DNA of 64,000 nt, taken from the IMG/VR virus record IMGVR_UViG_3300045988_123958. One strand, 5' to 3'. The notes under the pieces are model-generated. The model had not been told where the DNA came from. It saw only the letters and a list, made by a program, of their open reading frames with translations, and made no database searches. Origin of the DNA: a virus. Positions 3,897 through 64,000 of this stretch are shown here, piece by piece. How positions within the stretch are numbered: position 1 is the stretch's first letter; the number at the start of each line of letters is the position of its first letter. The position numbers and the translations under genes are program-made.

Positions 3897-3908
3897 GGAG
3901 GGTGGAAA

Positions 3909-5928: not shown

Positions 5929-5937
5929 GGAGGATTT

Positions 5938-16530: not shown

Positions 16531-16565
16531 TTGCAAAGTAAAAATTGGAGAGAAAGGAGATTTCT

Positions 16566-19500: not shown

Positions 19501-22500
19501 CTAATAAAACTTTTCTTGCTACTGTTGCTATTAGTGCTGTAGTTATCGGTACTTTATATGCGGTTTCTAAAGCGGCAAATGCTGAAGCAGAAAGTCTTCA
19601 AAAAGCTACTGAAGCTGCTGAAAATTTAAAAGAAAAATCTCAATAGACGAAAACTGAATTAAATAATATTATTTCGGCTTTCGATCAATATTAGACTGCG
19701 ATAGATACATTAAATGAATGTACTAAAGGAACTGATGAGTGGAAAGAAGCTTTATCAGATGTAAATGAATAGATTTGGAGTATTCTTGAAACTTATCCTG
19801 ACTTAGCTAAAATAGATAATCTTTTTAATGAAGATGGCACATTTAATCAAGAAGCTATTGACTCTTTTATAGCAGATAAACGTGATAAATCTAATAACGC
19901 TTAGGCAGCTGCTTTGGCCAGTTAGGCCGCAGTTAGTTAGATGGAATATTAGTCCAATAGAAAAGAAGCGGTTAATTAGGTTTATTCTGTGGTATCTAAA
20001 TATAGCACTAATGGCGAATCCAATGCGGAAAATAAAAAAATAGCAGGAGAATTAGTTGATTCTATCGTAAATGCTATAAATTCTCCTGATGGTATTCAAA
20101 ATATTGATGGAATTTTTGAAGACTATGCTAAGCAATTTGATAATATAAGTCTTGGCACTTCTTTAGATGATTTTACTAACGCTTTAAAGGGATGCTCTGA
20201 TAATTTAAAAGAATTAGGTAGAAATGCTAAAGAAACAGGAAATTAGGTTGATAATACTGGTAAATTATTATCTAAACAAGTTCTTGGCGATAATATAACA
20301 GATGAATAGGCAAATGATTTTACTAATACTTTTGATTCTGCTTATGCCAAACAAAAGAGAATTACTTTAAATGGTTTAAAAAATGATTTTACTAGATGGG
20401 CTGGAAGAAATAATAGTAATGTAAAAGATTATTGGGAACAATATAAAGAAGCTACAGGTTATGATTATAATTTAACAAGTAACGCAGTTCAAGGTAGTGG
20501 AGATAATCGCGTTTTTGAGTATTATAATGATGATGGTAACAAAGTAACCATTTCTGTTGAAGAAATGGCTGAAGCAATTGCTAGTGCTTAGGCTAAAAAT
20601 GATGCCGAAAAATCTACTAGAGAAGATTTAAATAATACTTTAGGTGAAGATATTTCTTCTAATATTAGTTCTGATGTAGATATTTCTCTTTTAAATGATT
20701 TGGTTCAAACTATGAATTTAGAAGATGAAACTACAAGACAAGCTCTTGAAGCGATGTTCGATGTAAATCAAACTGTAAGTGAGCAAGAAGATATTATAAA
20801 AGATTTAGTTAATACTTTAAGTGAAGAAGAAAAAGCTCAATAGGAAGTTGCTTCTTTAACTGAAAATGCTGTTTAGAAATATGGGTTAGATGCTGATGAC
20901 ATTGAAGATTAGGCTAAACGAATTCAGAAAGCCTATGATTTAACTGAAGTTGAAGCAACTAAACTTGCTATTACTAATTAGCGAATGAATAATGGCGTTA
21001 AAAACTTAAGCGACAATTGGGAAAATTGGAATTCTGTTTTAAAGAAAAGTCAAATCGATGATAAAGAAAAATTAACTAAAGAATATACTGATACAATCCA
21101 AGATTTAACTAAAACTATTGCTGATTTAACCGGTGCTTCAGAAGATTTAGAATTACCTGATGAATTTTTTGATTCGGCCGATAATTTAGAATTAATTAAT
21201 TAGGCTGCTCAAGGTAGTACTGATGCTATTAATCAATTGGGTATTGCTGTAGCAAAAACCACAGTTGATTTAATGGAAATTAATGATGCGGAAAAAAATC
21301 TTACCATGACTTATGGGGATAACGAAGATGAAGGTATTTTACCTGAATATATTCGTAATTTCCAAGATAATAAAGAAATTATTTTAAATGGTTTAGATGA
21401 AATTTCAGCTAAACTTGCTGAAGGTCAAGATTTAACTGGTAAAGGATTAGAAGAGATTCTTTCTGGTGGAACTGAAGCTGCAAATAATTGGGTTAATGCA
21501 TTAAATGAAATGGCTATGGCTACTAACATGTCTGTTGAAGACATGAATAGCACTCTTAGTCAAATGGGATTAACTGCTGATGTTGATGTAACTGAAAAAA
21601 CTATTACAAGTAAAAAACCAGTTACTAAAACCACTCTTACTTATGGAGAGCTAGACAAAGTTACAGGATTTCCAAAAGAAATAACTCAGCAATCTAGCAT
21701 AGTTGATTATACTGATGTACCTGAAAAAATATAGGTAGCTCAAATTGCTACTAATGGAGCAAAAAATACTCCTCCTAAAGTTAATTTTGCTGGTTCTGGT
21801 CCCGTATCTCATTCTTCTACTTCGTCAGGGAAAAAATCAAGTGGTGGTTCTTCTTCTTCTAAGCCTTCTAAAATTGATAAATCTAAAAAATCTGATGTTG
21901 TTGATAGATATAAAGAAATAACTGATAGTATCAACGATACTACTCGTGCTTTAGATAAAGCTAATAAATCAGCGGATAGGCTTTGGGGTAAAGCTCATCT
22001 TGATGCGATGGCTAAAAGCAATAAGTTAACTTTAAAAGAAGTTGATTTATTAAAACAAAAGCAAAAAGAAGCTTAGGCCTATTTAAAGACAGATAAAGCT
22101 ACTTTATAGCAAGCTGCGAAAAAAGCTGGAATTACTTTCACATTTGATGCAGATGGTGATATTTCTAATTATACTGATTAGATGACTAAACTTTATAATT
22201 AGCTTGTAGCCGCTTAGGATAAAGCAAATTCTTTTTCTACAAAAGATGCTCAAGATGCTTATAAAGAAGCAACTTTAGATCCTATTCAAAAGAAAATCGA
22301 TGAGTTAAAAGACGCCATTAGTCAATATGAAGATACAAGAGATTTAGTCGAAGAATTAACTGATGATATTCAAGATAAAATAAACGAGTGGCAAGACAGA
22401 AATTATCAAATGCTTACTTATGAAGTTGAAGTAAAGGTTCAATTAGACGAAAATGATACTAAGAAATTAGAATATTATTTTGATAAATTAAGTGATAATA

Positions 22501-24785
22501 TTTATAAAGCTGCTGAAGCTCTTGGATATTTACAAGGTCAATTTGATCCAGTAATTAGCCAATTAGGAACTTATGAAAATTTCTATGGTTAGTTAAACAA
22601 TGCTTATTCTAATGGAGAAATTTCTCAAGAAAATTATATTGAAGGCTTACAAGATGTATATGATAATACATTAGATAATTTAAATGCTTTGTAGGATTTA
22701 GATAAAGAAATGCTTGAATATTATGGTAATACTATAGATTTAGCAAATGATGAATTATCTAAATATACAGATCATATGGAGCATTTAACTAGTGTATTGG
22801 ATCATTATCGTTCTATTATTACTTTGTTAGGTAAAGACAAAGATTATGATAAAGTTTTATCAGTTTTGAATGGAACTGCTTAGACTAAGAAAAATAATTT
22901 TGATACTTCTAAACAATGGTATGAAAGCTTGAAGCGTGAACGTGATGCAGCAGCCGCGGCCTTAGCCAATTCGACCGATGAGGCGGAACGTGAAGGACTT
23001 CAAAAGAATTATGATGCTATATTAGCTGCGTTCGATGAGGCGGAAGAAGATATGCTTTCTAAAGCTGAAGAATATGGTGAAGCATTAAAAGAAATTCTTA
23101 CTACAAAGATGGAACAAGCTGCGGATGAAATGAATAAGCAATTGAGCACTACTAAAGTAAGTATTAACGGTAATAACTTTAATATTTCTGGCTGGGATGC
23201 TTTAAATGACGCTTTGGATAGAATGTCTTCTTATCAAGATGAATATTTAACAAAAACTAATTAGATTTATGAAATGAATAAACTACTTAATAATGTTAAT
23301 TAGGCTATTAATAAGACAAATAATCAAGCAGCTAAAAATAGATATCAGCAATTTACTAAAGAAATTGAGTAGTTAAGAGATAAAGATAAATTAAGTCAAT
23401 TAGAATTAGAAATTGCTTAGGCTAAATATAAAGTGCTTGAAGCACAAATCGCGTTAGAGGAAGCTCAAAACGCAAAGTCTACAGTTAGACTGCAACGTGA
23501 TAATGAGGGTAATTTTGGTTATGTGTATACCGCAGACCAAGAGAAAGTAAATGACGCGCAATAGGCTTTGGCAGACGCGGAAAATGACTTATATAACATT
23601 CGTCTTGATGCGACAAATAAATATGGTCAACAAAAACTTCAATATGAAAAAGAGCTAGCTGAAAAGCTTGCGGAACTCGATTAGAAAGCCGCGGAAGATG
23701 CTGTTTATCGTGAGACCACATATCAGCAAGAACGCGCATTAGTAATTCAACAATATACTGATTTAATTACTACTGCTGGAAACCTTTATGCGAAAGCACA
23801 AGAAGAGGATAACCGAGTAGTTCAAGATGCTTGGGTAAATTCTTTTGATATTATCAAAGATAATAGTAATAGTTGGAAAGATACTATTACTGAAAACACT
23901 AATATTATCAATGATACATTTAAAGAATGGCAAGGCAGTATGGATGAAATTAGTAAAATTGTTGGTGATGATTTAAAAGATACTCAATAGAAAGTTAAAG
24001 ACGTTACTGATGAAAGTAATAAACTTTATCAAGAAGTATCTAATAGAGTTATTCCTGCTCTTGAAAGTGAGTTGAGTTCCGTCCGTAGCGCCACTGAAGC
24101 TTGGGCACAACATCGTCAGCAATTACTTGATACTATTAGAGCTTATGAAGAGCTTTTAGATGCTATCCAAGCGACATTACGTGCTTAGAGTGGATTTGGT
24201 AGTGGAAGTAGCTCTGGTAATGATAGTGATTGGTCTAAAGATATGGGTAATGTAACATATGGGTCTGATGATTATTATAAATATATGTAGAATCGCGAAG
24301 ATAAAATTAATGGTGGATATGATGTTGGAGCTGCTACTAATGCTCGTGTTGATGCTTTCTATCGTAAAGGATTAACACTTCCAATTACTCGTAATGGATA
24401 GACTTATCGTTATTTTACTGACATTCCTGATAGTGTTTGGAAACAATTGGTTGGATTTAGAAGTGGTGGCTATACCGGCACTTGGAATGATGATGGCAAG
24501 TTAGCATTCTTACATTAGAAAGAATTAGTTCTTAATGCTGATGACACGGAAAATATGTTAGCTTCTATTCAATTAGTTAGATAGATCGCGAAACAATTAG
24601 ATTTCAATAGTCAACAAATTTCTACTCTTTCATCTTCTGGATTTACTGTTAGTTCTCAAGATGGAACATTAGAATAGAATGTTAGAATTGAAGCTAGCTT
24701 CCCGAACGCAACTGATAGATATGAAATTCAAGAAGCATTTAATACATTAGTTAATGTAGCTTCTCAATATGCCAATAGAAAATAA
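16566..24785 (+). CDS. tail tape measure protein (2,739 codons)
   Basis: ATG at 16566 is in frame 0. Track ORFs 19989, 20985, 21237, 22410 and 22929 are all in frame 0 and are separated only by TAG. Hand reading found dozens of in-frame TAG and no TAA or TGA before 24783. Contains a TMP-like segment (TEYTDAALIYYQQGLDD). Confidence 0.75.
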
Positions 24786-38788: not shown

Positions 38789-38808
38789 AGGATAGAAAGG
38801 AGTAAATT

Positions 38809-41800
38809 ATGTCTAAGATACGTTTTCGTCCTGTATAGGGCCCAGAAGAAAAAATAAAAGAATATCCTCAAAGCGATGGATATTTTTATGTGGCAACAGA
38901 TACAGGCCGAGTTTATTTAGATACGGCAACTGAAAATAAAATGCCAATAGGGTCTAGTGGTGTTCAGGTAATTTACGGTACAGATAATACTGTGGAAATT
39001 GAATATGATGCGGATGAAAACCCAGTGGCTTATTTAATTCTTTTATCAAAATTATCTATAACAAATTGTCATATAGATGATTTAATTTTAAATTTAGACG
39101 GATGTTTTTATCGAATTTTAGGTTTTGCTTTAAATGAAAACCGCGAAGAATGTGCGAGATGTGAAAAATTAACTGTCGCTGGGGCAGGCGGTGGCGGAGA
39201 AGGAGACTCTGAACAAAAAGTTTTAGGAACTGTTTCTTTAACAAGAATTCCATCTGACAGCCCTGTTGATATCTTAAATGAAGAAAATGTTAAAGTAAAA
39301 GTTTTGGTTAAATGTAGAACTGTTGGTGGCGTTCCGCAATCTTCTTCTGTGCAAGGAATTATAACTATAAGCGAAATTAAAAGTGCTACAGAAAAAGAAA
39401 TTTATTATACTTCTCCTCCTACTACTTATGAGCACAATATTCCGCAAGAAATTGATTTAACTAATATTTTAAGAAATTCATGTTCTAGTGAAATTAATTT
39501 TAGTATTTATTATAATCCTGATAAAGAAAATAATAGATTTTAGAAAAGCTCTGATACTATTAATATTAATAAACATCATCTTTCTTTTAGTTGGAAAGAA
39601 AGTAGTTTTAGTAATGATAGTCCAGTTGATAATGGACAAATATCTGTTAGCTGGTTAATGTCTGAAGATATTGCTAGATCTGTTGAAGTTTATTTTGATG
39701 ATTATTTAGTTTTAGATAGAGCTTATAGTGATACTGATTCTTCTTCTGAAGATTCTTTTGTTATTACTCCTGATACAAATATATTAGGGGTTGACAAAGT
39801 TTCTACTTTAAAAAATTATTTTACTCATGGTGAGCATATAATAAAAGCAAAGTTGTATTTAATGAATAATTCTAAAAAAGGCGCGGGAACAGATTTTATT
39901 CAAAAGGAAATTGTTATTCAAGAATCAGGTAATAAAATGCCTTTAATTTGGGTACAAGATTTTAAGACAGAATATTATACTTATGAGACAATAAGAATTC
40001 CTTTTAAAGTATTAGATCCAAATAATAATGGAGCTTTTATAACTCTTTATAAGAATGGCGTTCAAGTAGGAACTAGAGAATTAGATAGTTCACAAGTTAG
40101 AGAATGGCAATATTGGGAAATTACTAATTTAACTGTAGATGATAGTTCTTATTATACTATTAAAGTTGGTACTGATCCTTATTCTTATTCTCGTAATTTT
40201 AATTTTACAATTTTAATTGATCCTTTAAGAGATATGAAATTAGCAAAAAAAGATAATTTAAAAGTTAATTTTATAGCTACTGGTCGTTCTAATTCAGAGG
40301 GAAAATTAGGCCGTGAAACTTATTTAATTAATAATAATAAATACGTAGAATTTAAAAATTTTAATTGGTATAATAATGGCTGGATTTTCGATGAAAATAA
40401 TACAACTTGTTTACGAGTAAGTAATGGTGCAGAAGTATCTATTCCAGTTGGGAAAATGGCTTTTAAAGATGGGTCATCATCTGCTACTATTGAGGTTCAA
40501 TTTAAAATAAAAAATCCTCAAAATTATGCTAAAGTTATAACTAAATATACTAGATATAAAGTAAGTAAAGATAATTGGGAAGACGATGATGCTTGGGATA
40601 AATTTAAAGCTCAAAATAAATATCTTAATTATGATGAGTTTTTAACTAAAAAATATTTACCGACAACCAATTATAGTTATGATGATTTAGAATATAATAA
40701 AATAGAACAAGATTTTAATTTAAAGAATTTAGTTTGTGCGTATGGTAAATTAGGAAGCTCTGTATCTCCTGGTATTTATTTTAGTCCATAGGATGCTGTA
40801 TTTACAGCTAATGGTGCTCAAGAAACAGTTTCAGTTGATTTTATTGAAAATGAAATGCTAAATCTTTCATTTGTTTATACTAAAAAGAAAAGTGATATAG
40901 AAGGCGGAAATTCTAAATTATTAGAAATTTTTATGAATGGCGTTTTAACTAGTGTTGTACGTTGTAGTAGTGATGTTTGGAATATTGATTCTGATTTCAT
41001 TAAATTTATGTCTAATACTTGTGATATTGATATTTATAGTATTAGAGTTTATGATACAGATTTAACCATTCCTGAAATAGTCCAAAATTACGCTTTTGAT
41101 AAGAGAAGTATAAAACAGTGGGACCAAAAAGATCTTTATGAAAACAATACGGTATTAAAAGATGATGTATTTTCTTATACTAAAATGAAAAAGTATAATG
41201 ATAATCATCCGACTGAACCTTTAATGCCCTATATTATTTTAAGGACTACTAAAAATAATAAAAATAATACGGATAATAGATTACCTTATTCTAAAGCAAA
41301 AGAAAGCTAGGAAGGAACTTTAGAATTTGTTAACACTGCTTTAGACGCTGCTTACAACAGTGGTGAATTAGAAAAAGTTGCTATAAAAGAAGGATGGAAA
41401 CCTGTAATTGAAAAAAATGAAGAAACATAGGAAGAAGTAGTAAAATATACTGCGGTATAGAATTATTATATGCATCATTGTCCTAGTTTTATAACTGTTC
41501 TTAATGGATGTACTTTCCAAGTTCAAGGTACTTCTTCACAATTTTATCCTCGTCGTAATTATAAAGCTAAATGCAAAGAATCAATGCTTTTAAATAGAGG
41601 CCCATTTGCTGAAGACTATAAAAAAGCAGGAGACTAGTATAATGAAGATATAACTAAACATCCTTGTTATTTAGAATGGTTTTATATGGATAATAAGACA
41701 GTCGGTACTACTAAATTTACTTTAAAAATAGATTTTATGGAATCTTCTGGAGATTATAATAGAGGATTTGCTAATTTAGTTAACGAGATTTATTCTAAAC

Positions 41801-44800
41801 ATCCAGTAGAAGACTATAAAGATTCTTTTGATAATTATAATTTATATGGAAATTTAGAAGATTATCGCACTTCGGTAAAAGGATTCCCCGTCTTAGCTTT
41901 CCACTATATGTCCAACGATGATAATACTTACTCTAAGGAAAATAGTAATAACTGTATTTTTATTGGCAAATATAATATGTTATTAGATAAAGGATCAGAT
42001 GAATGTTTTGGATTTAAACCAGATAAAAAGATTTTACAAAATCAAATTACGGGCAATCCTAAAGTAAGAGATATGGCAGAATGTTGGGAATTTTAGAACA
42101 ATTCAAGAACTTTCTGTTCTTTCCGTGATCCTTGGAATCGTTATAAATTATCATTTAGAAATCCTAATATGGTAATACCTCCAGACGGAGATAATCCTGA
42201 ATTAGTTAAAGGCGCTCCAAAAGTCGTTGATTCTTTTGAGCCAAGATATAATCCAAATGATGATTTAATTGCTAAATAGTTATTTAGTTTAAAAGACTGG
42301 CTTGATCCAGATGGAACATAGACTGAGGCTACTGGAAAAGAATTAAAAAATGTAGCTCCTGATAGACTTACTAAAAAAGAAGTAGTAGATGAGCTTACTG
42401 GAATAAAATCTACTAAATGGATTATAAAAAATCCCGATGGAGAAGAGATAGAATTTAATGTTAAAGATGATACAAGCAAACAAGAATTACTTTTAGCTTT
42501 AATGTCTAACTGGGAAGATGCAGTTAGTTGGGTTTGGAGTACTTGCTTAGATTGCGATATTGAATTTGATGATGGATAGAAATTAAAAATTCCATCTATG
42601 GGCGTTTATACTAAAGTTGATGGATTAGCTGAAGCCATATATGTTCCTAATGTCTATTATGTTGAAAATGGAGTTAATGAAAATGGAAAAATTATTTATA
42701 AATTAGCTTCTGAAGAATATAACTCTGAAACAAGATATTATAAGTAGATTAATGAAAATAATAGTTTAAAGTATGTAAGCATAAAACTTACAAATAATTC
42801 AGATAAAGTATATAAAGCAAATATTTATTATCTTTTAACTGATAGTAAAAATGAAATTTATGTATTAAGTTCTGATAAATTTAATTCTTCTTTAGATTAT
42901 TATTCTTTTAATAAAAATGAAGAAGGTATTGAGGAAAGATGGAAATTACCTAACCCAGTAACCTATGGCTCTATTACTTATACTAAAGATAGTAAAGAAT
43001 ACCGTCAAGCTAAATTTAAAAATGAATTAAGTAATTTCTTTGATATTGAATATTTAGCTTCTTACCTTTTAATGACAGAAATTTTTGAATGTTATGATTC
43101 TCGTGGAAAAAATGCAATGTTTGCTTCTTGGGGGCCTCAAAAAGGCAATGTTCAAAAATCTACTGGCAAACAACATTATGTTTGGTATCCTATCTTTTAT
43201 GATATTGATACTCAATTAGGTATTAATAATACTGGTATTCCATCTTTTGAATACTATATTGATGCTACTGAAGAAGGAAGTTTTTCAACTAACGATAGTG
43301 TTCTTTGGAATAATTTTTACACTTTCTTTAGAAGTAAGATGGTGGATAAGTATAAGCAATTAATGGGAACTCAAAATAATTCTTATAGTCCAAATGATTC
43401 AAGAGTAAATAAAATTTTTATTAAAGGCGCTGAGGCAGGGGCTAAAAAAAGTGATATTGTAGATAAATGGTATCGTACTGATCCTTCAGTATTCCCCGGT
43501 AGTTATGCGGCTTTAGGAGACCGACCAATTATTGCATTAAGTTTGGATGAAGAATTTAAATATATTATTCCAACAAATTCTAAAGCAGAAAATATGCCAG
43601 TATTTGGTCGTTTAAAGGATGATGGATCTTATGGCCGTGAAGATGATAAATATTTTTATGCTTTACAAGGAGATAGAAATCTTTATCGTGCGCAATTTTT
43701 AGCCAATCGTCTTAATTATATTGACTCTTGGTTAACTGTTGGTACTTATGCCAGAAATGGTGGAGGAAGCTATATTAGAAGTCGTATTTCCGCGAACAAT
43801 CCTAAGAATACATCAGATAAATGGATTGAAGGTACTAACACTCAAAACATGGAAGGATTAATTACAAATTCTCAGTATTGGAAAAATGGTACTGAATTCG
43901 AAGAAAAAAATCATATGTTTGATGGTGAGTATTGGATCAACATGGAACCCGCGCGTAATGCCTATGTTACTATTGGTACAGATGGAGAGAATTTTCCTTC
44001 AAAAAAATATAATGGTTTAGAACCGGTTAAATATGTAGCTCCTGATATTAAAAAAGGAATTATGAGTAGCGGAAATTATAAAGAACAATTATATTATATT
44101 TATGGAATGGATCAAATGAAATCTCTTGGTGATTTAAGTAAATTATATTTCCAAGAGTTTGCAGCTGAAGGAAAAATGGAGCGTTTAACTGATTTATTAT
44201 TAGGATATGATGGAAAAGATGAAAGCGGTAATGAATATTTTAATAATGATGTAAATGACTGGTCCTTCTCAAAAGGTGGAATGCCTTTACTTAAAGAAAT
44301 GAATCTTTGTAATATTAACTTTAAAAAAGACTAGGGGGCATTAGATTTAACTAAGAGTGAAAAACTTGAAAACTTTAGAAATACTAAATCTAATATCCCG
44401 AGAGTTAATTTTGCTCCTGGAGTAGCTTTAAATACTTTATATTTAACCAATCGAACAAATTATTTAAGTTTAATAGAAGCTAATTTATTAACGAAATTAA
44501 TAACTAACTATATATATCCTGAAAAAAATTCAATTACTGGAAAACTTGAGGTCTTAGATGAAAATCGTGGTTTATATATTCAAGGTCTTACTGATGCTGA
44601 AGAAGGAAAAGAAAAAACCGAGATAAGAACTTTTGATATTCGAGGCGGTAATTTAGGTTATAATAGTTATGAATTGTTACGCAAATATATTTCAGCTAGT
44701 AAAAATAGTAAATTAGATTTATCTAATTGTATTATTAATTTAAATAATGTTTAGTGGAGTCCATATAGACTTCTGACTGACACTAAAACAACTCTTGACC

Positions 44801-46553
44801 CAGAAAGAAAATCTTATTATAGAGATAATGGACATTTTTAGTTAACAGCTATTCCAAAAGATTAGGTTAATAAAATAACAAAATCTGATATTAAAAATAA
44901 TTAGATTTATTATTTAGATACAATAAATGGAGACAATAATAATCATAATATAATAACTGATTATAATTTATTAATTGATATTTATAATAATTATAGGGGT
45001 CTTAATACTAATAAACCAGAAATATCTGGTGTTATGTATATAAAAAATAATAATTAGATTGATGAATCTATTATCTAGAATGAGTTATAGGATAAATACC
45101 CTGATTTAATAATTTTTGTAGAAAATGTTAAACAAGAATGTTCTGCCAAGTTTATTTTAGAAAAAGAAGATATTGATGGAGTGTTAATTTAGGAGGTTCT
45201 AAAAACTTAGAAATTACCTTTATCTAGCAGTAAATTCTTTGATGATCCAACAAATTCTTCTAGCGAAACTTATATTTCTTTTGGTAGCTTACAAGAAAAA
45301 ATGCCAACTTATGATTTTAAAGGTTGGGAAGATGATACGGGAGAATTAGTAATTACTGTTGGAAAAAATGTAAATGAAGAAGATGTTGTTTTAAAAAGCG
45401 ATTGGAATTCTTTGTCTTTACAACCTAATAAAATGGATTATATTTTTAAAGCGAGATTTAAGCGTAAATCTTATACGATCACTTTCGTTAATGGTGACCG
45501 CGTTGTTAATGATTCAACTGTAAAGAAAGTATTTAATTATGGTGAAAGAATTACTGTTCCAGAAGAATTCTATTATTTTAATAATACAGAAGTATCTAAT
45601 TTACCAGAAGGCGAAGATCCATTAGAATGGACTTGGAAATAGGCTGGATGGGCGGATAAAGATGGAGTTAAAATTGATTTAACTAAACAATTAGCTTATT
45701 CCGACCGTGAATTCTATGCTGTTGGAGAGCCGATTAGTGTTTATGATAATATTTTAATTAATGATTCTGCTCATAAATATTATGATATTATAAACTCTGA
45801 TGGAGAATTATCATTTGCAATGACTGACTTAGCTAAGAATTTAAAAGGCAAAATTACTTTACCTACAACTTATAATGGTTAGCCAATTACAAGAATTAAA
45901 TATAGTCAAGTTAACCCATCAGCAGCAGTTGGTATTCAAGTAAATCCTAATATCACTGCGATATTTTTTGCTCCAAAAGATAGCAATAAAATTTCTGTAA
46001 TAGATGATTATGCTTTTATTTTAGATAGTGGGTTAGAATATTTCCAATTTAGTGATTGTTTAAAGAAAATTGGTACTAAAGCATTTTATCAATGTCCTTT
46101 AAGTCGTAATAACATAATTCCTTATTCTTCTTCTACTGAAGGTTTGACTTTTGGAGCTCAAGCATTTTATCAAAGTAAGATGGGTTCTTATTCTCCTTAT
46201 AATTTAATTATAGAGGGATGCAAAGACGGTATTCTTAATTTTGATATAAATGCGTTCTCTGGTTAGACAATTTTAAATATGTCTGGTAATTAGTTTAAGG
46301 GTTATACTGGTGCTATTCAAGTATAGATTGGCACTAATAAACATCCAATTAAATAGATTACGGCAGATAGTTCTGGTAATATTTTTACCCCTCGTCAAAC
46401 AGGTATGCCTACTGTCGCTAATGGATATACAGGTCGTTTTAGATATTATTATGTTGCTAGTTATGGTGAAAGTGTTAAGAATACTTTACATAGAATTTAT
46501 GAAGCAATGATATCTAATAGAGCAAACTTTGAAGAAGAACCTATTGTAAAGTG
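38809..46553 (+). CDS. giant tail fiber / receptor-binding protein (about 2,581 codons) with Listeria-Bacteroides-type repeat and BspA-type LRR C-terminal region
   Basis: ATG at 38809 is in the same frame (pos mod 3 = 1) as track ORFs 38890, 39658, 40855, 41686, 43072 and 45301. Hand reading of the gaps shows only TAG, no TAA or TGA, up to a TGA near 46551. The C-terminal region contains GYxFxGW-like repeats (YDFKGWED) and an LRR-like stretch (ISVIDDYAFILDSGLEYFQFSDCLKKIGTKAFYQC). Confidence 0.55.
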
Positions 46554-57365: not shown

Positions 57366-57818
57366 CTAATTGCGGGAACCGCGTAAAGGTAAAGTAATAT
57401 CTCTTTCCTTTTGGATATATGGTCCATCAATTAGATAATCAGCGGTTTTTAATATATTCTTAATTCTAATATTATTACTATTCTTCAAATCATCATAAAC
57501 ATATCCAGTCCATATATATATTTTAATGTTTGGATATATTTTTTTAATTTCAGTAATAATTAAATTAGTTAAAAATTCATTTTCAGGGCAGAGAGGCTCT
57601 CCACCCATAATACAAAGATTACGCTCAACATTATTCGCATTAATAGCAGTAATTAATTCATCTAATACTTTATTAGTGAATTCTTTACCACCATTAAAAT
57701 CCCACGTTTCGGGGTTTTGGCACCCTTCACAATGGTGCGGACACCCTTGTGTAAAAAATGATACACATACTCCGGGTGCCGCTGCCAAATCATTCTTTAT
57801 AATTCCTGCATATTTCAT
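57366..57818 (-). CDS. nrdG: anaerobic ribonucleotide reductase activating protein (radical SAM)
   Basis: CPHHCEGC (Cx3Cx2C) motif; overlaps the end of nrdD. Confidence 0.8.
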   Translation of the reverse strand: MKYAGIIKNDLAAAPGVCVSFFTQGCPHHCEGCQNPETWDFNGGKEFTNKVLDELITAINANNVERNLCIMGGEPLCPENEFLTNLIITEIKKIYPNIKIYIWTGYVYDDLKNSNNIRIKNILKTADYLIDGPYIQKERDITLPLRGSRN

Positions 57819-60085
57819 TCTAACACTCCTGTATGTTTCACTCTTGCTTCAACTTCTTTTTGTTTACCCCAGTTAAAAGCAGTTTTATAATTGCCTGTAA
57901 GATAACCAGTCACACGACGCAATTGTTGAATATTGTGGCTTCCGCACACAGGACAAGAATCATTAAACTCATCACAATAACCACATTCAAGGCAAGTATC
58001 ATTAGGAACATTTACTGCGAAATAAGGAATATCGTGGTCCATTGCATAATTAACAATAGTTTCAAGAGCATCAATATTGTGTTTTACAGTAGAATCAAGT
58101 TCAACATAAGTAATACATCCTGCGGATGAATAGCCAGTCAGCTCAGATTCAATATCAATTTTTTCAAACGGACTCATTTCTTTCCACACTGGAACATGAA
58201 TACTATTAGTGAAAAATTCTCTATCACTAACATTAGGAATAATTCCATACCTTTCTTTAAATTTTGTCATAGCAGTATAACATAAATTTTCTGCGGGTGT
58301 ATAATAAACTCCAAAATTTAATTTATATTTTTCTTTATACTCGGCGCATCTATCTTTAAATAATTGTTCAATTCGTTTAGCTAATTCCATTCCTTCTGAA
58401 GTGGTGTGGTCTTTACCAATAAGAATTTGAAGAGTTTCAGCTAAACCTAACTGACCAATAGCAAGAGTTCCGTGCTTAAGAGCGGAACGAATTCCTTCTT
58501 CTGGAATATAACCTGCCATAACGTTATTTTCATACATAAATTTCGCGGAGCCTGGGTCTTGAGAGCAAATCCATTCAAAACGTTCCATTAATTGGATACG
58601 TGCTTCATTGATTTTTCTATCAAGTAAAGACATAAATCGTTCTACACCAATTTTAGTCCGTTCTTCTTGGGACAACGATTTATAGTCCTCCCAATTATCA
58701 TTTTCGTTTAGGGTAACGGCCATCATCGCAAGAGTTGGAAGAATAATAGTAACTGGACAAATATTTCCACGTCCATCTTTAAGCTGGCCGAATCCATTGA
58801 TATCCCAGCCGTTTGCGGTTCTACATCCCATTGTAGAAAAATAAGTGCGAGGATCATTAATATCATATCCCGCATTACCAGACCAATCAACATTTGCATA
58901 ATTAGGATAAAGGCGTCTCGCGGTGCTTTCTAATGCTAATCTATATAAATCATAGTTAGGATCACCTAATTTGCGGTTAACCCCTTTCATACATTGGAAA
59001 ATTCCACAAGGAAAAATTGAAGTTTTATGTAATTTACCAAGACCTTCAATAGAAACATCTAATAACGCCTTAGTTACCATTCTGCCTTCAGGTTTAGTAC
59101 AAGTGCCATAGTTAATACTTGTAAATGGTAATTGATTGCCACTACGAGATTGTAAAGTATTAAGATTATGATAAAGACCTTCTGCAGCTTGATGAGTTTC
59201 GCGAGTAGTCATTTTCATAGCATATTTATATGCTTTTGGAAATGATTTATAAAAATCATCATCAATAGGAGTTTCTTTACTATAACAACCATCATATTTG
59301 CTCATATCTAATCCTTCATATAAAAATTCAATACCATCATTGAAATGTTTAAAGAAAGATTTTCTTACATAAGGAACCATAGTCCAATCTAAATGAGTAG
59401 CACTAACTCCACCAAACTAACAAAGACTTTGGATTTGAAAAATAACAGCAATTAATTGAAACGCTGTATTAATTGAACCCGCAGGACGAACATCAGCTTG
59501 ACGAGTATTAAATCCATTAGTGAGTAAATCATCAAAGGGAATACTTAAACAATTATGAGAACCAACATAATAAGAATCAAGGTCATGAGTATATATCATA
59601 TTATCAATATGATTCTTACGAGCCATAGGGGAAAGTAAGTAATCAAGTGCAAGTTGTTTGGTGACAACACTACTTGCTTCACCTATACGGCCACCAAATG
59701 AATGTTCATCAACATTAGCATTTTGATTTTTTACATTATTACCATCGAGCTTTTCACGAATTGCTTTAATAAAATCATCTTTTTTATTACGAGCAACTTC
59801 TTTTTTATATCTATATCTGATATAAGCACGAGCAACATCGCGTCGCTCAGAACGCATTAAATAATCTTCAATCCAATCTTGAAGATCTTCTACTCCAACG
59901 CTTCCATCAGGGAAATGATTTATTTGTCTTTCAATGTCTTCCGCGATATCTTTCGCAGTATCATCTTCATATAGTTTACCATCAACTTCAATAAATGCTT
60001 TATTTATTGCGTTAATAATTTTCTTTTTATTAAATTGAGTTATACTTCCATCACGTTTAATAATATACAATTTTTTTGCCTCCAA
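57815..60085 (-). CDS. nrdD: anaerobic ribonucleoside-triphosphate reductase (single gene read through one TAG)
   Basis: Track ORFs 59417..60085 (ATP-cone N-terminus) and 57815..59380 are in the same frame, with a TAG at 59417-19 and a 12-codon open linker. C-terminal Zn ribbon CLECGYC...CPVCG and glycyl-radical motif RVTGYL. Confidence 0.85.
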
Positions 60086-60144
60086 ACTAAATATAGTAGT
60101 TCTTTTAGAATATTCTACTATATTTAGATTTTGTTAGTAAATAA

Positions 60145-60750
60145 TTATTTATCTTGGTCCATTTCCGCCCATTGCTTAACTCTTTGAGTTAAAAGATTAA
60201 CAATATTATTATAATCTTCTAATGTTTCATTTGTCACAATATTGCACTTAATATCATTCATTAGTTGAAATTGAATTTCATCAGTAGTATATCTTCTAAT
60301 AATTTCATTTACATCAGGATTTTCTTCTCTGTTTAATTGCCTAATTAAACGTGTCTTTCCTTTAGCGGTGATATAATATATCTCCAATTCAATTCTATCA
60401 TCTTTAAGAAGACTTATAATTCCTTCGGGATTAAAAACACCAATATTAACTTTACTATCAGACAAACTATCAATACTTGTGCCATAATACCAATTATTAA
60501 AAGAAGTGGTTTCTAACATTTTATTTTCATCAATTAAAGTTAAAAACTAATCATCTGAAACAAAATGATAATTTTTATCTGCTATTTCTTTTTCACGCTT
60601 TGGGCGCGTAGTGTGGCTTATAATAGGATTTAGATATTCTTCTAATTGGGAAAAGGTAGCCATCATTAGGCTATCTTTTCCTGCACCAGATTTTCCACAT
60701 AATGCAATAATTTTATACATCTTCTTCAATTCCTCCTTGATAACGAGCAT
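60145..60750 (-). CDS. gmk: guanylate kinase (read through one TAG)
   Basis: Track ORFs 60547..60750 (P-loop GKSGAGKDS, TTRPKRE, HFVS) and 60145..60519 (NWYYGTS) are in the same frame, separated by a TAG at 60547-49. Confidence 0.8.
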
Positions 60751-62190
60751 CTTTTAAAACTAAATCGCCATTGGATAAAATTTCATCAATTTTATATAAT
60801 TGATGCCCTCCAGAAGAAGCATATTTTTTTGACATGAAATTATCTCCATTGCGGATTCCAGAGACTACAATCATATTTCCGCGATTAAACCAAGATTTTT
60901 CAACAATATGTTTGGTTCCATCTGCACCGCGCTCTGAAATTTGTTTATCAAACAAACTAAAATATTCTTTTCTAAACTTTACTTCTACAGGACCAGTAGT
61001 AGTAAGAATGGTTACAGTGCTTTTAGTTTTATTTTTGGCAATACAAGTTCCGCAAATTTTAAATAACTTATAAATATGAATAGTATGATTTCCTTTGGTA
61101 AAACTTCTATCAATTATTGGATCTTCTGGAAGCTTAAAGAAATCTACAAATCCATATTTATCATTGTTAATATTGTTCAATTCATGAGTATGATAATAAT
61201 AACAAAGAACTTCCATTTCCCAGGCGGATAAATTATTTTTATTAGCGTATTTATCCCAATCATCTTTAAATATTTTTATATTCAGATTATTCAAAATTTC
61301 ATCTTTATTATTAGCAATCCAAGTGCGGAATATGTCCATCCACTTTTGGTATATACCATTCCAAACATTTTCACTTAAAGAATAATTAGTTCCATCAAAT
61401 TGAATATTATTATCTTCTCCAATTTCTACTAAAAAATTAATGGCTCGTTCATCAAGTTGATATAGACCATTATTTTTTGTAGTTTTACAAATTGCTTTTA
61501 AATATCTATTAAATTCATAAATACGGCGAGCCATAATTTGATTTTCATTTTCTTCTGGAAGAAGATCATACTTCATAAGTCCGCCCATATTTTGAAGAGT
61601 AATTCTTTTCTTTTTGTCGCAGGTTTCCCAAATATACCAAATCATTAATTCTTTTCTATCCATCATATTATCAAAGGCTCCACCTTTAATAAGAGAAATC
61701 ATAGCTTGTTTACCTGGCTTAATACGATATAAAAATTCTTTAGGATTTGAATAAGGACGATTAGCAATGATTGTATTAACTAATTCATCACCAACATTTA
61801 GCATACCTTTTAATCCAAAAAGAATTTTATTATTTTCAATATCAGGGGCAAATCCAAATTTAGATTTGTTAATATCAGGAAGACCTACTTCAATTCCTGC
61901 TTTTTGAATATCACTAATAGCCTTGGCAATTTTTCCATAATCGGTGGCTGCGGTTTTGCGGATTTTGCCACTTTTGTCAGGAAGATCTTCAAATGTTACT
62001 CCATTAGCTAAATCATCGCCTTCAGGAGCATAAATATCGACAATCTCTTCTTCGCTATTATCTTCAAGGGAACCACTATTAACAATTAAACAAGCGGTAT
62101 CCCAATAGATAGGATTAAAATGAATTACTAAGTAAATCATTTGAATTGCTACAAATGAATAAGGTAGACTATGATTTAAACTAAATGCAT
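60713..62190 (-). CDS. dnaE: DNA polymerase III alpha subunit (DnaE-type), exon 2
   Basis: Track ORF 60713..62203. The region DAFSLNHSLPYSFVAIQ aligns with the conserved GYGFNKSHSAAYALVSYQ motif. The first four track codons (MRIT) are inferred to be intronic. Confidence 0.7.
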
Positions 62191-63331
62191 CAGTTATTCT
62201 CATATTTCTATGAGGGCTGGACTATCTTTTACTATAATATATATAAATTATAGCACACCATTTCGAACTACGTATCAATAGTAGTCCTACTTCCGGTCTC
62301 ACCCGGAATAGTCTCTACAATATTTATCTTAATGGATATTTTAAATTTTCGTCTTTATCAATAGCACCTATATTAACTCTACGCACTGTTTCATCAGATG
62401 TTCCAGTTAATTTTACAATATCTTTATATAGGAGATTAGTATTTAATAAATATTCTTTTATTAATTGTCTTTTATATTTTTGTGGAGTTATTTTTCTAAT
62501 AGGATATTCGCCTTTATAATATCCTTTTTGCAATGTTCCATAATTAAATTTTTTAATAGTTGATTCTCCTAAATTATATCGTTGTGCTAGTTCTTTAAAA
62601 GTTAGTTCAGGTTTTATTAAATCTTCAATTAAAGCATCATAAATATCATTAGAAATTCGATATCTACATAAAGGATATATTTCTTTTTTATTATAAAAAT
62701 ATTTTCCAGAATTGATACCTGAAATAAAAGTTTTAGATATGGGATAATATTCTTGTATTTTTGAATAAGATGTTTCATCTTTAATCATTATTTTTATCTT
62801 TTCAACATCTTCTTGTGTTAAAAAAGACTTCCAACTATTATTTCCGCCTTCTAAAACATTATATCCCCATTGAGTTAATAAACTTTGTTCTTTTTTAATC
62901 CAATAACTTTCACGTTCATTTACTAAATCATATGTTTTAGCATCTGTTATAATTTCAATAATTTCAATTTTAAAATTGTCATATCCATATTTACGAATTG
63001 CTTGATGGATTTTATCATTATAATTTACACTATTAGGATTAAAAGAACAACTTTTATGTTCATTAACTCTTCTTTGAAAATTATTAGTCTAACCTATATA
63101 TTTTTTATTATTAATTAAATTCGTATATTTATAAATATAAAATATCATTTTATTTCTCCTTTAAAATATATTAAAGGACCATTAAGACATTTATCACGGG
63201 ATTGGTATATATTAATGATTCCTTCATTAATACTTAACTTTCCCCGTTAGCAAATTAATAAGTTTAGCCCCAAAAAGGGCTATTAATTTACCCCTGTGAT
63301 AACAGGTTAGGTGTGTAAGGGCAAGCTATTT
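62191..63331 (-). mobile_element. group I intron (about 1,141 nt) carrying a GIY-YIG homing endonuclease gene, inserted in dnaE
   Basis: Exon 1 ends with ...UUAGGGU, which pairs with the internal guide GCCCUUA at 63316-22, giving a U.G pair at the 5' splice site. The terminal G at 62191 precedes exon 2 (AUGCAUUU). The splice gives the in-frame sequence ...PQLG-Y-AFSLNHS. Confidence 0.65.
62324..63148 (-). CDS. GIY-YIG homing endonuclease (intron-encoded)
   Basis: ATG after AAAGGAG. MIFYIYKYTNLINNKKYIG[TAG]TNNFQRRVNEHK continues in frame into track ORF 62324..62788. About 274 codons. The TAG falls at the canonical YIGQT position. Confidence 0.75.
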
Positions 63332-64000
63332 ACCCTAATTGAGGAGCAACTGCAATTTCCCAAAAGTATTCAGCAGATTTTTCATTATCAAATTTACTAA
63401 ATACTTGTTCTTTTAATTGTGGAATTTTAGCCATTTGCTTTTTAGCAACAATCTTACGCGCAGTATTAGCTTCACCAAGAGTAAAATGAGCTACATCCAT
63501 AAGAATTTCCATCATTTGCTCTTGAATAGGACAACATCCATAATATTTATCACAATGCTTATGCATCTTATCAATTAATTCTTGCGGAAGATGCTGAGCC
63601 TTCATTTCATCATCAAATACTTTAATACCCGAATGTTGAATGCGATAATATCTATCTTGCTGTGATTCCTTACCTTTTTCAGACATAAGACGCATCATAG
63701 CATTGGCCGCCGTCATTTCCATAGGGTCTTGGGGTTTAAGGCGTTTTGCTATTGCCAAACCGACTCCTGTAGAAAATTGGAATACATCTAATACATCACC
63801 AGCAGCAAGGTGGTCCCAAATTGCTTGATCAGTTGTATCTATTACTTCTGGATGAATATATTTATTATAAAATTCTCGTAAAGATAATTCTGGAACCTAC
63901 TTATCTTTTAGAAGTAATTGATAACAAGTAATAATTTTATCAGAAGCTTCAGTTACAAGGAAGTCATATTTTGTGTCTCCAGCAGCTTCCGCTTTATGAA
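63332..64000 (-). CDS. dnaE: DNA polymerase III alpha subunit (DnaE-type), exon 1, 5' portion outside the window
   Basis: Track ORF 63330..63758 (FTLGEANTARKIVAKKQ finger-like region). The frame continues upstream through a TAG and includes a KYDFL motif. Confidence 0.65.

What the first reader, a model, noticed from the sequence alone, without database searches (positions are those of the whole stretch)
62191..63331. Group I intron with a GIY-YIG homing endonuclease interrupting the Pol III alpha (dnaE) gene
The dnaE coding sequence on the - strand is interrupted by about 1.14 kb. The insert contains a self-standing GIY-YIG gene with its own RBS. The upstream exon ends in UUAGGGU, which can pair with an intron GCCCUUA to form P1 with the hallmark U.G pair. 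Splicing after the G at 62191 joins GGG U + AU GCA and gives ...APQLG-Y-AFSLNHSLPYSFVAIQ. That reconstitutes the conserved G-Y-(A/G)-F-N-K-S-H-S finger motif of DnaE, which neither exon encodes alone. Downstream of the endonuclease gene there are P7/P9-like AGACUA...UAGGACUAC segments.
Basis: partly seen in the sequence, partly recalled or inferred. Interest (0 to 1): 0.75.

Follow-up and report, generated by a model that had tools for sequence, protein, structure and literature searches.

The report
Mobile group I intron in phage dnaE
A 1,141-base self-splicing-type (group I) intron carrying its own homing endonuclease gene interrupts the replicative DNA polymerase gene of a human-gut phage; this is a well-supported but ordinary example of a kind of selfish element long known in phage DNA-metabolism genes.

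Summary
Window 62191-63331 (- strand) is a 1,141-nt insertion in a DnaE-type polymerase gene. More than 30 related phage contigs carry the same gene uninterrupted (...CAATTAGGAT|ATGCATTT...). These fix the boundaries: the 5' exon ends in U and the insert ends in G.

The insert has a complete group I core: P1 with a U.G pair, P3, P4-P6, invariant P7 (GACUA/UAGUC), P7.1, P7.2, P8, and P9 with a GAAA loop. In a 31-member alignment, 90% of cells pair, against 68% in shuffles and 36-46% in slid controls. A family profile of the 3' half hits only the T4 td and sunY intron cores in 76 kb of T4 DNA.

A 274-codon GIY-YIG endonuclease gene sits in the P6 loop. It is I-TevI-like and has its own Shine-Dalgarno. 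Its single in-frame TAG is a sense codon, because the whole genome is TAG-recoded.

Splicing would rebuild the G-Y-A-F-S-L-N-H-S finger motif. The spliced product aligns colinearly with solved Pol III alpha.

Rfam's group I model does not detect this intron or its ORF-less relatives. The family lacks P2 and has two conserved hairpins between P3 and J3/4.

Splicing and homing themselves are inferred, not shown.

The parts
63332..64000 (-). Upstream dnaE exon. It runs off the window end and ends in ...CAAUUAGGGU. It contains one in-frame TAG.
   Evidence: Translation. Pfam DNA_pol3_finger 4.8e-20. Contiguous with the downstream exon in intron-less relatives.
62191..63331 (-). Group I intron, 1,141 nt, phase 1 (splits the Tyr codon as T|AT).
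   Evidence: Exact insertion relative to more than 30 intron-less alleles. Core helices supported by covariation. Homology to the T4 td and sunY cores.
60713..62190 (-). Downstream dnaE exon (AUGCAUUUAGU...), up to and including the stop codon.
   Evidence: ORF list. Pfam HHH_6 4e-15. Aligns to Pol III alpha structures.
63318..63336 (-). P1: exon AGGGU (63332-63336) pairs with the internal guide GCCCU (63318-63322), with U.G at the splice site. The loop AAAUAGCUU contains a weak P10 candidate, GCUU (63323-63326), against exon-2 AUGC.
   Evidence: Sequence. In the family alignment the U.G pair is present in 28 of 31 members and P1 is 84.5% paired. The IGS covaries with the exon in the sister intron L031 (AGCCU/GGGCU).
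63310..63315 (-). P3 5' strand CACACC, which pairs with GGUGUG at 62254-62259.
   Evidence: 98.4% paired; 5 of 6 pairs show changes on both sides. A sequence-only alignment test gives 4.39 of 6 positions paired, against 3.36 +/- 0.14 in shuffles.
63252..63306 (-). Two conserved hairpins between P3 and J3/4. hpA is 63293-63306 (CCUGU-UAUC-ACAGG). hpB is 63252-63289. GCUAA (J3/4) follows at 63247-63251.
   Evidence: hpA is 95.5% paired and hpB 94.2% paired, both with compensatory changes. Both are present in the centroid fold. Neither is present in T4 td, nrdB or sunY.
63196..63247 (-). P4 (ACGGGG 63242-63247 with UCCCGU 63196-63201) enclosing P5 (63202-63241). P5 carries a tetraloop-receptor-like GUUAAG...UAUAC.
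   Evidence: P4 is 98.9% paired, with G-C/A-U covariation 16:15 at one pair. P/Q-like sequence similar to td. Most relatives have CCUAAG...UAUGG at this position.
63179..63187 (-). P6 5' strand UCUUAAUGG, which pairs with CCAUUAAGA at 62327-62335. An extension, P6a, pairs 63160-63169 with 62336-62345. Together they close the loop that holds the ORF.
   Evidence: Sequence. Equivalent ORF-closing helices occur in 53 family members. Their mean longest helix is 10.4 bp, against 7.3 in shuffles. The 3' strand usually ends 13-14 nt before GACUA.
63156..63177 (-). Shine-Dalgarno AGGAG (63156-63160) of the endonuclease gene, partly sequestered in a local hairpin CCUUUAAU...UUAAAGG (63158-63177).
   Evidence: strand folding gives an 8-bp hairpin, z = -2.4. 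Sequence.
62324..63148 (-). GIY-YIG homing endonuclease gene, 274 codons plus stop. The in-frame TAG at 63089-63091 is read as sense. The last three codons form the P6 3' strand.
   Evidence: Pfam GIY-YIG 1.7e-10. phrog_7168 'homing endonuclease' 9e-32. I-TevI catalytic domain 1MK0, E = 2.3e-6. The TAG aligns with Gln (CAA) in the L031 homolog. The genome is TAG-recoded throughout.
62220..62313 (-). Catalytic core, 3' half. P7 is GACUA (62309-62313) with UAGUC (62220-62224). P7.1 is 62292-62307. P7.2 is 62265-62287. J GAAAU follows, then P3' (62254-62259) and P8 (62232-62253).
   Evidence: The MFE and the centroid of the 3' half alone reproduce exactly these helices. P7 is invariant in 31 of 31 members. 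P7.1 is 92.3% paired and P7.2 99.1% paired. R and S elements are shared with T4 td and nrdB. Profile hit to the td and sunY cores.
62191..62214 (-). P9 (CUCAUA-GAAA-UAUGAG, 62199-62214) and the terminal G (omega G, 62191).
   Evidence: Sequence and fold. P9 is 79% paired in the family. The intron's last base is fixed by comparison with intron-less alleles.

Best explanation
Window 62191-63331 (- strand) is a mobile group I intron of the phage IA2-like type. It sits in the DnaE-type (Pol III alpha, SPbeta YorL-like) polymerase gene of a TAG-recoded human-gut phage.

Inferred splicing mechanism. The dnaE pre-mRNA folds so that the exon end AGGGU pairs with the intron guide GCCCU (P1, U.G at the splice site). 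The P3-P9 core binds guanosine in P7. Two transesterifications remove the intron after its terminal G and join ...GGG U to AU GCA.... This restores the Tyr codon and the G-Y-A-F-S-L-N-H-S finger motif, so one full-length polymerase is translated.

Inferred mobility. The P6 loop carries an I-TevI-like GIY-YIG endonuclease gene with its own, partly hairpin-sequestered, ribosome-binding site. On co-infection, its product would cut intron-less dnaE alleles. Repair from the intron-bearing copy would then copy in the intron together with some flanking exon sequence.

Shown here: exact boundaries, core structure with covariation, homology to proven self-splicing T4 introns, an intact endonuclease gene once TAG is read as sense, presence/absence polymorphism, and a co-conversion-like tract.

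Inferred: that the RNA actually splices, and that the endonuclease actually cuts and drives homing.
For: (1) 36 related loci encode the same DnaE region without interruption. The junction is ...GGAT|ATGC.... Nine assemblies, including a 130-kb human-gut contig, carry the intron allele.

(2) The 5' exon ends in U, opposite the G of GCCCU. The intron ends in G.

(3) On 31 family members the named structure is 90.1% paired, against 68.2% shuffled (0 of 500 shuffles reach it) and 36-46% when slid. 42 of 55 pairs change on both sides. P3, hpA, hpB, P4, P7.1 and P7.2 are each 92-99% paired.

(4) The 3' half alone folds into P7, P7.1, P7.2, P8 and P9 as its MFE.

(5) A family 3'-half profile hits only the T4 sunY core (E = 8.6e-6) and td core (E = 3.2e-5) in 76 kb. 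A profile built without the window finds window 62320-62199 at E = 3e-21. Element-by-element correspondence with td and nrdB.

(6) Rfam RF00028 scores 56-68 bits on other introns in three pattern-derived family loci (L130, L096, L121). Read by eye, the L130 one has the same P3-hpA-hpB layout.

(7) The sister intron in L031 lies 14 nt downstream. Its guide sequence is changed to match its own exon (AGCCU/GGGCU), and it has a 5-bp P10.

(8) The GIY-YIG gene: Pfam 1.7e-10, PHROG homing endonuclease 9e-32, I-TevI 1MK0 2.3e-6 with R, E and N aligned.

(9) The spliced protein aligns colinearly with Taq Pol III alpha residues 744-844 and with SPbeta YorL.

(10) There are 9 synonymous changes at +11 to +26 and one at -1 relative to close intron-less relatives. 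The background is 1-3 per 50 nt.

(11) There is no terminator on the coding strand inside the intron.
Against: Rfam's group I model finds nothing in the window at gathering or E<=10 thresholds. It also finds nothing in ORF-less members of the same subfamily at E<=1.

P10 in the window is weak: AUGC/GCUU with a U-U mismatch.

The 5' domain departs from T4 td, nrdB and sunY: there is no P2, and two hairpins lie between P3 and J3/4.

No RNA data are available. The spliced junction was not found in IMG/VR or JGI collections.

The endonuclease ORF is intact only if TAG is decoded, and no suppressor tRNA lies in the window.
Confidence: 0.93

Rival explanations
1. A 'genes-in-pieces' split. A free-standing homing endonuclease cassette inserted into dnaE, and the polymerase is made as two separately translated polypeptides that assemble without RNA splicing. 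The precedent, recalled from my own knowledge, is the phage Aeh1 nrdA split by mobE.
For: The upstream frame ends in TAA right at the boundary. An ATG (62203) opens a 496-codon ORF, MRITDAFSLNHS..., that gene callers do annotate. PHROGs holds separate families for N- and C-terminal DnaE pieces.
Against: The ATG at 62203 lies inside the P9 helix and has no Shine-Dalgarno, whereas neighbouring genes and the HEG have AGGAG(G). The break falls within a Tyr codon in the middle of the conserved GYxFxxxHS motif. The roughly 310 nt of non-ORF insert form a complete, covarying group I core. A plain HEG cassette has no reason to carry such a core.
Confidence: 0.03
2. A decayed or splicing-defective intron. 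The element is a group I intron by descent but no longer splices, so this dnaE copy is a pseudogene or depends on a host or phage splicing factor.
For: P10 is weak. The intron lacks the P9.1/P9.2 extensions of T4 introns. The HEG's last 3 codons form the P6 3' strand and its last 6-7 the adjoining P6a strand, so translation could disturb folding.
Against: Every core helix is intact in the window sequence, with no mismatches in P3, P4, P7, P7.1, P7.2, P8 or P9. The exons and the HEG are uninterrupted apart from sense TAGs. dnaE is the only replicative polymerase gene seen in the locus. The same allele recurs in 9 assemblies.
Confidence: 0.03
3. An intein or a group II intron explains the interruption.
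For: Inteins are common in DnaE and other replisome genes (literature seen).
Against: The insert is not in frame: there is a TAA at the boundary and many stops follow. There are no Hint or intein domains; Pfam finds only GIY-YIG plus weak HTH hits. The boundaries are U|A...G|A, not the group II GUGYG...AY. There is no reverse transcriptase ORF and no domain V hit in Rfam.
Confidence: 0

Closest known systems
T4 td intron with I-TevI (group IA2 intron, GIY-YIG endonuclease in the P6 loop)
   Same: The order of core elements is the same, and the sequences are near-identical: P4/Q (..CUAAACGGGGAA.. / ..CAAUCCCGUG..), R (..GACUAU), P7.1, AGUA, P7.2, CGAAAY, P3', P8, S (GAUAUAGUC). The ORF lies in the P6 loop with its own RBS next to a hairpin. 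The endonuclease N-domain is homologous to I-TevI. There is an in-frame stop just after the 5' splice site. The host gene is a DNA-metabolism gene.
   Different: There is no P2. Two extra hairpins lie between P3 and J3/4. P7.2 has a 9-nt conserved loop, CUAUUGAUAC-type, instead of td's short stem. There is no P9.1/P9.2. The host gene is dnaE, not thymidylate synthase. The endonuclease C-terminal half consists of repeated HTH-like modules, and no I-TevI zinc-finger linker was detected. The ORF contains a recoded TAG.
T4 sunY (nrdD) intron with I-TevII
   Same: P2-less: P1 is followed almost directly by P3. It is the best T4 hit of the family 3'-half profile (E = 8.6e-6). Its HEG is of the GIY-YIG family.
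   Different: In sunY, P3 abuts J3/4 with no hpA or hpB. The sunY ORF lies downstream of the core (after P9), not in P6.
Group I introns reported in polymerase and other essential genes of gut phages (crAss-like and Jug phages) and in SPO1, Bastille and Pf-WMP3 DNA polymerase genes
   Same: The biology is the same: a self-splicing intron, with or without a HEG, in a conserved site of a phage replication gene. Borges et al. describe an intron endonuclease with recoded stops in an early gene of TGA-recoded Agate phages.
   Different: As far as I know, the SPO1 and Bastille host genes are family A polymerases, and most of those endonucleases are HNH nickases. I did not check this in the papers read. 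Here the host is a DnaE-type Pol III alpha, the recoded stop is TAG, and the exons carry TAG codons as well.
Sister introns in related phage dnaE genes (L031, L138, L056, L154, L131)
   Same: The 5' domain is the same (CACACY-UAA-hpA-GGGGU-hpB-GCUAAC). The GIY-YIG gene is homologous (37% identity, identical ...YPLR end on the P6 strand). The target motif in DnaE is the same.
   Different: In L031, which has an intron-less reference, the intron is inserted 14 nt further downstream (after AGC CU|U), not within the Tyr codon. The other four lie at about the same spot by reading of P1. Their guide sequences are retargeted accordingly, and P5 and P8 differ.

Membership tests
Group I intron | The 5' exon ends in U, which forms a U.G wobble with the internal guide sequence (P1). 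| tested here: met
   AGGGU|/GCCCU with a terminal U.G. U.G is present in 28 of 31 family members. The guide covaries with the exon in L031.
Group I intron | The last intron nucleotide is G (omega G). | tested here: met
   The boundary is fixed by intron-less alleles...AUAACUG|AUGCA.
Group I intron | A P3-P7 pseudoknotted core with P4-P6 and P3-P8 domains, supported by covariation. | tested here: met
   The count of structure pairs gives 90.1% paired, against 68.2% shuffled and 36-46% slid. P3 is 98.4%, P4 98.9%, and P7 is invariant. P6 closing helices occur in 53 members.
Group I intron | Conserved R and S elements forming the guanosine-binding P7, with homology to experimentally proven introns. 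| tested here: met
   GUAGAGACUAU and AAAGAUAGUCC are present. Alignment with T4 td and nrdB. nhmmer hits to the sunY and td cores only.
Group I intron | Match to the Rfam RF00028 covariance model. | tested here: not met
   No hit at gathering or at E<=10 in the window. No hit at E<=1 in ORF-less family members. Other introns in three family loci do score 56-68 bits. The window has an 825-nt ORF in P6 and a displaced P3, neither of which the model can represent.
Group I intron | P10 pairing between the guide region and the 3' exon. | tested here: inconclusive
   In the window, AUGC/GCUU gives 3 of 4 pairs. The sister intron L031 has a clean 5-bp P10, UAAUC/GAUUG.
Group I intron | Guanosine-dependent self-splicing. 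| not testable with these tools
   No RNA data are available. The spliced junction is absent from the DNA collections.
Subgroup IA2 (T4 td / nrdB / Twort type) | P7.1 and P7.2 hairpins between P7 and P3'. | tested here: met
   P7.1 is 62292-62307 and P7.2 is 62265-62287. They are 92.3% and 99.1% paired, with changes on both sides at every pair.
Subgroup IA2 (T4 td / nrdB / Twort type) | P2 between P1 and P3, with P3 immediately upstream of J3/4 and P4. | tested here: not met
   P3 follows P1 after 2 nt. Two hairpins (hpA, hpB) separate P3 from GCUAA-P4. td and nrdB have P2, and in sunY P3 is adjacent to J3/4.
Subgroup IA2 (T4 td / nrdB / Twort type) | An extended P9 domain (P9.0, P9.1, P9.2). 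| tested here: not met
   Only 7 nt follow P9 before the omega G at 62191.
GIY-YIG homing endonuclease (I-TevI-like) | A GIY-YIG catalytic domain with the conserved Arg, Glu and Asn. | tested here: met
   Pfam PF01541 scores 41.5 bits against a cut-off of 22.6. In the alignment to 1MK0, residues 5-100, the RR, ERE and GYN motifs are aligned.
GIY-YIG homing endonuclease (I-TevI-like) | An uninterrupted reading frame. | tested here: met
   There is one in-frame TAG, at codon 20. It aligns with CAA (Gln) in the L031 homolog, YIGQT. Treating TAG as sense triples the long-ORF coverage of the window.
GIY-YIG homing endonuclease (I-TevI-like) | Site-specific cleavage of the intron-less allele, which drives homing. 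| not testable with these tools
   Only indirect evidence exists: presence/absence polymorphism and a co-conversion-like tract.
DnaE / Pol III alpha (host gene) | The spliced product is colinear with Pol III alpha through the finger motif. | tested here: met
   Pfam finger and HHH_6 domains. Taq 3E0D residues 744-844 align across the junction. SPbeta YorL is 40% identical and contiguous.
Intein | The insert is in frame with the host protein and encodes Hint splicing blocks. | tested here: not met
   There is a stop at the boundary and throughout the frame. No Hint domain is found.

The most novel reading that the evidence does not exclude
Its 5' domain is rewired. There is no P2, and a conserved two-hairpin module is inserted between the P3 strand and J3/4. 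hpA carries a UAUCA loop, and hpB follows after a GGGGU linker. The curated Rfam model misses the subclass. If this layout has not been described, it is a new structural variant of the IA ribozyme fold. A secondary point concerns a pair of sister introns 14 nt apart in one DnaE motif. Their guide sequences are retargeted, and this would document an intron moving to a neighbouring site.
Probability: 0.3. Interest if true: 0.45.

Novelty: new member of a known kind. Interest (0 to 1): 0.33.

Why it matters
For annotation: the phage's replicative polymerase is one gene, not three 'hypothetical' or partial ORFs plus stray nucleases. Standard tools miss this. Rfam gives no hit, and gene callers report a false MRITD... 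start.

For biology: the finding adds a DnaE-type polymerase of a TAG-recoded gut phage to the list of intron targets. The intron's selfish endonuclease gene is written in the phage's altered code. Related introns occupy two sites 14 nt apart in the same catalytic motif.

The family alignment also exposes a set of group I introns that the curated covariance model does not recognise. This matters for intron surveys in viromes.

None of this changes current understanding of how such elements work.

Tried and rejected
- Rfam at gathering threshold on the whole window gave nothing for group I. So did E<=10 on 62100-63420, six related loci, and E<=1 on five loci holding ORF-less family members. The only weak hit near the intron, freshwater-2 at 24 bits, simply matches the AAAGGAGAAA...AUG ribosome site.
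- blastn of the insert against 50,697 phage records gave only a 39-nt core match, in Enterococcus phages EF1 and EF5.
- Exact-pattern scans for the intron's 5' junction found nothing. Scans for the predicted spliced junction also found nothing in IMG/VR or JGI metagenomes. So there is no direct splicing evidence, and no intron-less allele with the window's own flanks.
- My first assumption was that P3 lies next to J3/4, as in td. It failed: hpB's 3' strand does not covary with the P3' segment. The real partner lies just after P1.
- P8 could not be scored column-wise, because MAFFT misaligns its variable length (50% paired). It is supported only by the single-sequence fold.
- A tRNA scan for a TAG suppressor found none in the window.
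- The promoter scan was not above chance.
- Intein and group II intron readings were rejected on sequence grounds. Literature searches found no report of a group I intron in a phage dnaE. They did show that the general phenomenon is well documented.
Full report
**Observation.** On the - strand, a DnaE-type reading frame runs in from the window end and stops at GGG TAA (63330-63335). A second frame, encoding the rest of the polymerase, continues from 62190 to 60713.

The ORF between them (63148-62324) has AGGAG 8 nt before its ATG and translates to MIFYIYKYTNLINNKKYIG*TNNFQRRVNEHK.... With the in-frame TAG read through, it scores 1.7e-10 on Pfam GIY-YIG and 9e-32 on a PHROG of homing endonucleases. 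Its first 100 residues align with the I-TevI catalytic domain (1MK0, E = 2.3e-6), and the Arg, Glu and Asn motifs are in register.

**Boundaries.** A back-translated scan of IMG/VR with the predicted spliced protein returned 40 loci. In 36 of them the joined exons align without interruption, at 75-97% nucleotide identity. The closest relatives read ...CAATTAGGAT|ATGCATTTAGCC..., while the window has ...CAATTAGGGT[1,141 nt]ATGCATTTAGTT....

The insert is therefore exactly 62191-63331. The exon ends in U and the insert ends in G. Any other register would alter the encoded Gly-Tyr-Ala.

The spliced product aligns colinearly with Thermus aquaticus Pol III alpha residues 744-844 (...FANYGFNKSHAAAYS...) and with SPbeta YorL at 40% identity. 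So the insertion lies inside the Tyr codon of the conserved finger motif.

**What the insert is.** Rfam gives no group I hit. I therefore worked from relatives.

- The 3' non-coding part shares a conserved block with inserts in L031, L035, L036 and L040 and with Enterococcus phage EF1.
- Profile searches paired 5' and 3' halves in about 70 introns. Most have a 700-1,100-nt ORF between them, and a dozen are compact.
- I cut the ORF out, aligned 31 non-redundant members including the window (A1), and projected the helices I had read from the window sequence onto the alignment.

The count on that alignment:

| Measure | Value |
|---|---|
| Cells paired | 90.1% |
| Shuffled control | 68.2% (0 of 500 shuffles reach the observed value) |
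| Slid registers | 36-46% |
| Pairs changing on both sides | 42 of 55 |

| Helix | Paired |
|---|---|
| P1 | 84.5% (splice-site U.G in 28 of 31) |
| P3 | 98.4% |
| hpA | 95.5% |
| hpB | 94.2% |
| P4 | 98.9% |
| P7 | invariant GACUA/UAGUC |
| P7.1 | 92.3% |
| P7.2 | 99.1% |
| P9 | 79% |

P8 is misaligned because its length varies. It forms in the window's own minimum-free-energy fold, which reproduces P7, P7.1, P7.2, P8 and P9 exactly. P6 (UCUUAAUGG/CCAUUAAGA) closes the ORF-bearing loop, and equivalent helices bracket the ORF in 53 relatives.

P5 carries a variant of the CCUAAG...UAUGG receptor-like motif seen in most relatives. L9 is GAAA. From my own knowledge, this is the usual L9-P5 docking pair. 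It was not tested here.

**Link to proven ribozymes.** The T4 td intron matches element by element, with near-identical R, AGUA, CGAAAY and S segments: P4/Q, R, P7.1, P7.2, P3', P8 and S. A profile of the family's 3' half hits only the sunY and td cores in 76 kb of T4 sequence (E = 8.6e-6 and 3.2e-5). A profile built without the window finds only 62320-62199 in the window, at E = 3e-21.

Rfam's model does recognise other introns in three pattern-derived family loci, at 56-68 bits. It misses compact members of this subfamily even at E<=1. I therefore record the Rfam criterion as not met and attribute this to the model, not to the absence of a core.

**An unexpected feature of the family.** The P3 5' strand lies two nucleotides after the guide sequence, so there is no P2. 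Two covarying hairpins then follow before GCUAA-P4. hpA has a conserved UAUCA-type loop and is followed by a GGGGU linker; hpB comes next.

I tested the P3 placement without using the pairing to place the strands: 4.39 of 6 positions paired, against 3.36 +/- 0.14 in shuffles. It then held on A1.

In T4 td and nrdB, P2 precedes P3 and P3 abuts J3/4. sunY lacks P2, but its P3 also abuts J3/4. I could not establish whether this layout has been described elsewhere.

**Mobility signals.**
- The element is polymorphic. It is absent from 36 related IMG/VR loci. It is present in 9 assemblies, found through the artefactual exon-2 ORF MRITD..., which starts inside P9. Among them is a 130,275-bp human-gut contig that contains the window.
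- Against its closest intron-less relatives, the window has one synonymous change at -1 (GGA to GGG), which strengthens P1. It also has nine synonymous changes packed into +11 to +26. The background is 1-3 per 50 nt. This looks like a co-conversion tract.
- A sister intron in L031 has a homologous GIY-YIG gene (37% identity). It lies 14 nt downstream, and its guide is retargeted (AGCCU/GGGCU). L138, L056, L154 and L131 look the same, but I placed their splice sites by eye from P1 only. The window's substituted tract covers that second site.

**Genetic code.** Reading TAG as sense raises the coverage by ORFs of at least 200 codons from 18.8 to 54.4 kb of the 64-kb window. One ORF holds 77 in-frame TAGs. 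The TAG in the endonuclease aligns with CAA (Gln) in the L031 homolog, YIGQT. The endonuclease gene is therefore intact in the phage's own code.

Borges et al. proposed that recoded stops delay an intron endonuclease in TGA-recoded Agate phages. Here the dnaE exon also carries a TAG, so no differential timing can be argued from the sequence.

**Rivals.**
- Split gene translated in two pieces. This is unlikely. The downstream ATG sits in P9 with no Shine-Dalgarno, the break is inside a codon of a catalytic motif, and the non-coding parts form a complete ribozyme core.
- Decayed intron. This cannot be excluded without RNA, but all core helices are perfect in the window.
- Intein and group II readings fail on sequence.

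**Comparison and novelty.** Group I introns with GIY-YIG or HNH endonucleases in phage polymerase, reductase and terminase genes are textbook. They are documented in bulk in gut phages. This is a new member of that kind.

Its particulars are as follows:
- a DnaE-type host gene;
- a TAG-recoded genome;
- a P2-less 5' domain with an inserted hairpin pair;
- invisibility to Rfam.

These features are of moderate specialist interest. Splicing and homing remain inferences.

Noticed in passing
window 1-64000 (for example + strand 16542-24782 and 38806-46551): The genome is TAG-recoded. With TAG read as sense, ORFs of at least 200 codons cover 54.4 kb instead of 18.8 kb. Giant ORFs of 2,747 and 2,582 codons hold 77 and 28 in-frame TAGs. 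The - strand replication genes (NrdD, kinase, DnaE, HEG) hold only 1-2 each. No tRNA gene lies in the window.
   Followed up: partly
L163 about 2616-3737 (same contig as the window, upstream of window position 64000): The same dnaE gene carries a second group-I-like insertion outside the window. The exon ends CUGCCU|, the guide is GGGCAG, R is GUAGAGACUAU, S is AAUAUAGUCC, and the insert ends ...AAAAACG|GAUAUU. It holds a 262-aa NUMOD3-domain ORF (2828-3616). Its first bases (AAUAUUGAUAUUG) repeat the start of the following exon.
   Followed up: partly
L031 6678-7873; L138, L056, L154, L131 (dnaE of related phages): Sister introns with a homologous GIY-YIG gene sit in the same DnaE motif. L031 is 14 nt downstream of the window's site, fixed by comparison with intron-less alleles. 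The other four lie at about the same spot by eye. Their internal guide sequences are changed to match their own exon ends.
   Followed up: partly
window 62165-62180 (exon 2, +11 to +26 from the splice site) and 63333: Nine synonymous substitutions fall in six consecutive codons (AGCCTTAACCACTCCCTT to AGTTTAAATCATAGTCTA), and GGA changes to GGG at -1, relative to relatives that are otherwise about 97% identical. The tract covers the insertion site of the sister intron. It could reflect co-conversion or resistance to the sister element's endonuclease.
   Followed up: partly
window 63252-63306; family alignment A1 columns 59-127: A conserved two-hairpin module lies between the P3 5' strand and J3/4. 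It consists of hpA with a UAUCA-type loop, a GGGGU linker, and hpB. It is absent from T4 td, nrdB and sunY. Compact members of this subfamily are not detected by Rfam RF00028 even at E<=1.
   Followed up: partly
L040 about 2880-4090 and about 4767-5990; L035 about 4781-5994; L096 1571-1760 and 1767-2035: Several related phages carry two or more family introns close together. L040 has two upstream of the dnaE region matched. L096 has two introns almost in tandem, one of which Rfam detects.
   Followed up: no
window 63158-63177: An 8-bp hairpin, CCUUUAAU/AUUAAAGG, overlaps the first three bases (AGG) of the endonuclease gene's Shine-Dalgarno AGGAG. Its 3' strand can alternatively pair with the end of the ORF (P6a, 62336-62345). 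This resembles the translational masking described for I-TevI, which I recall from my own knowledge.
   Followed up: partly
Enterococcus phages EF1, EF5 and VRE9_3; Bacillus phage LY2; Campylobacter phages A147 and A135; rV5-like coliphages (hits H28-H47): Cultured phage genomes contain unannotated members of this intron family. Features under the matches are 'none' or 'hypothetical protein'. In some coliphages the match lies inside the class III ribonucleotide reductase gene.
   Followed up: no
window 57818-60133 and 60148-60753 (- strand): The anaerobic ribonucleotide reductase (NrdD) and a guanylate-kinase-like gene each look split under the standard code. Each is continuous once its single TAG is read as sense. 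These are not introns.
   Followed up: partly
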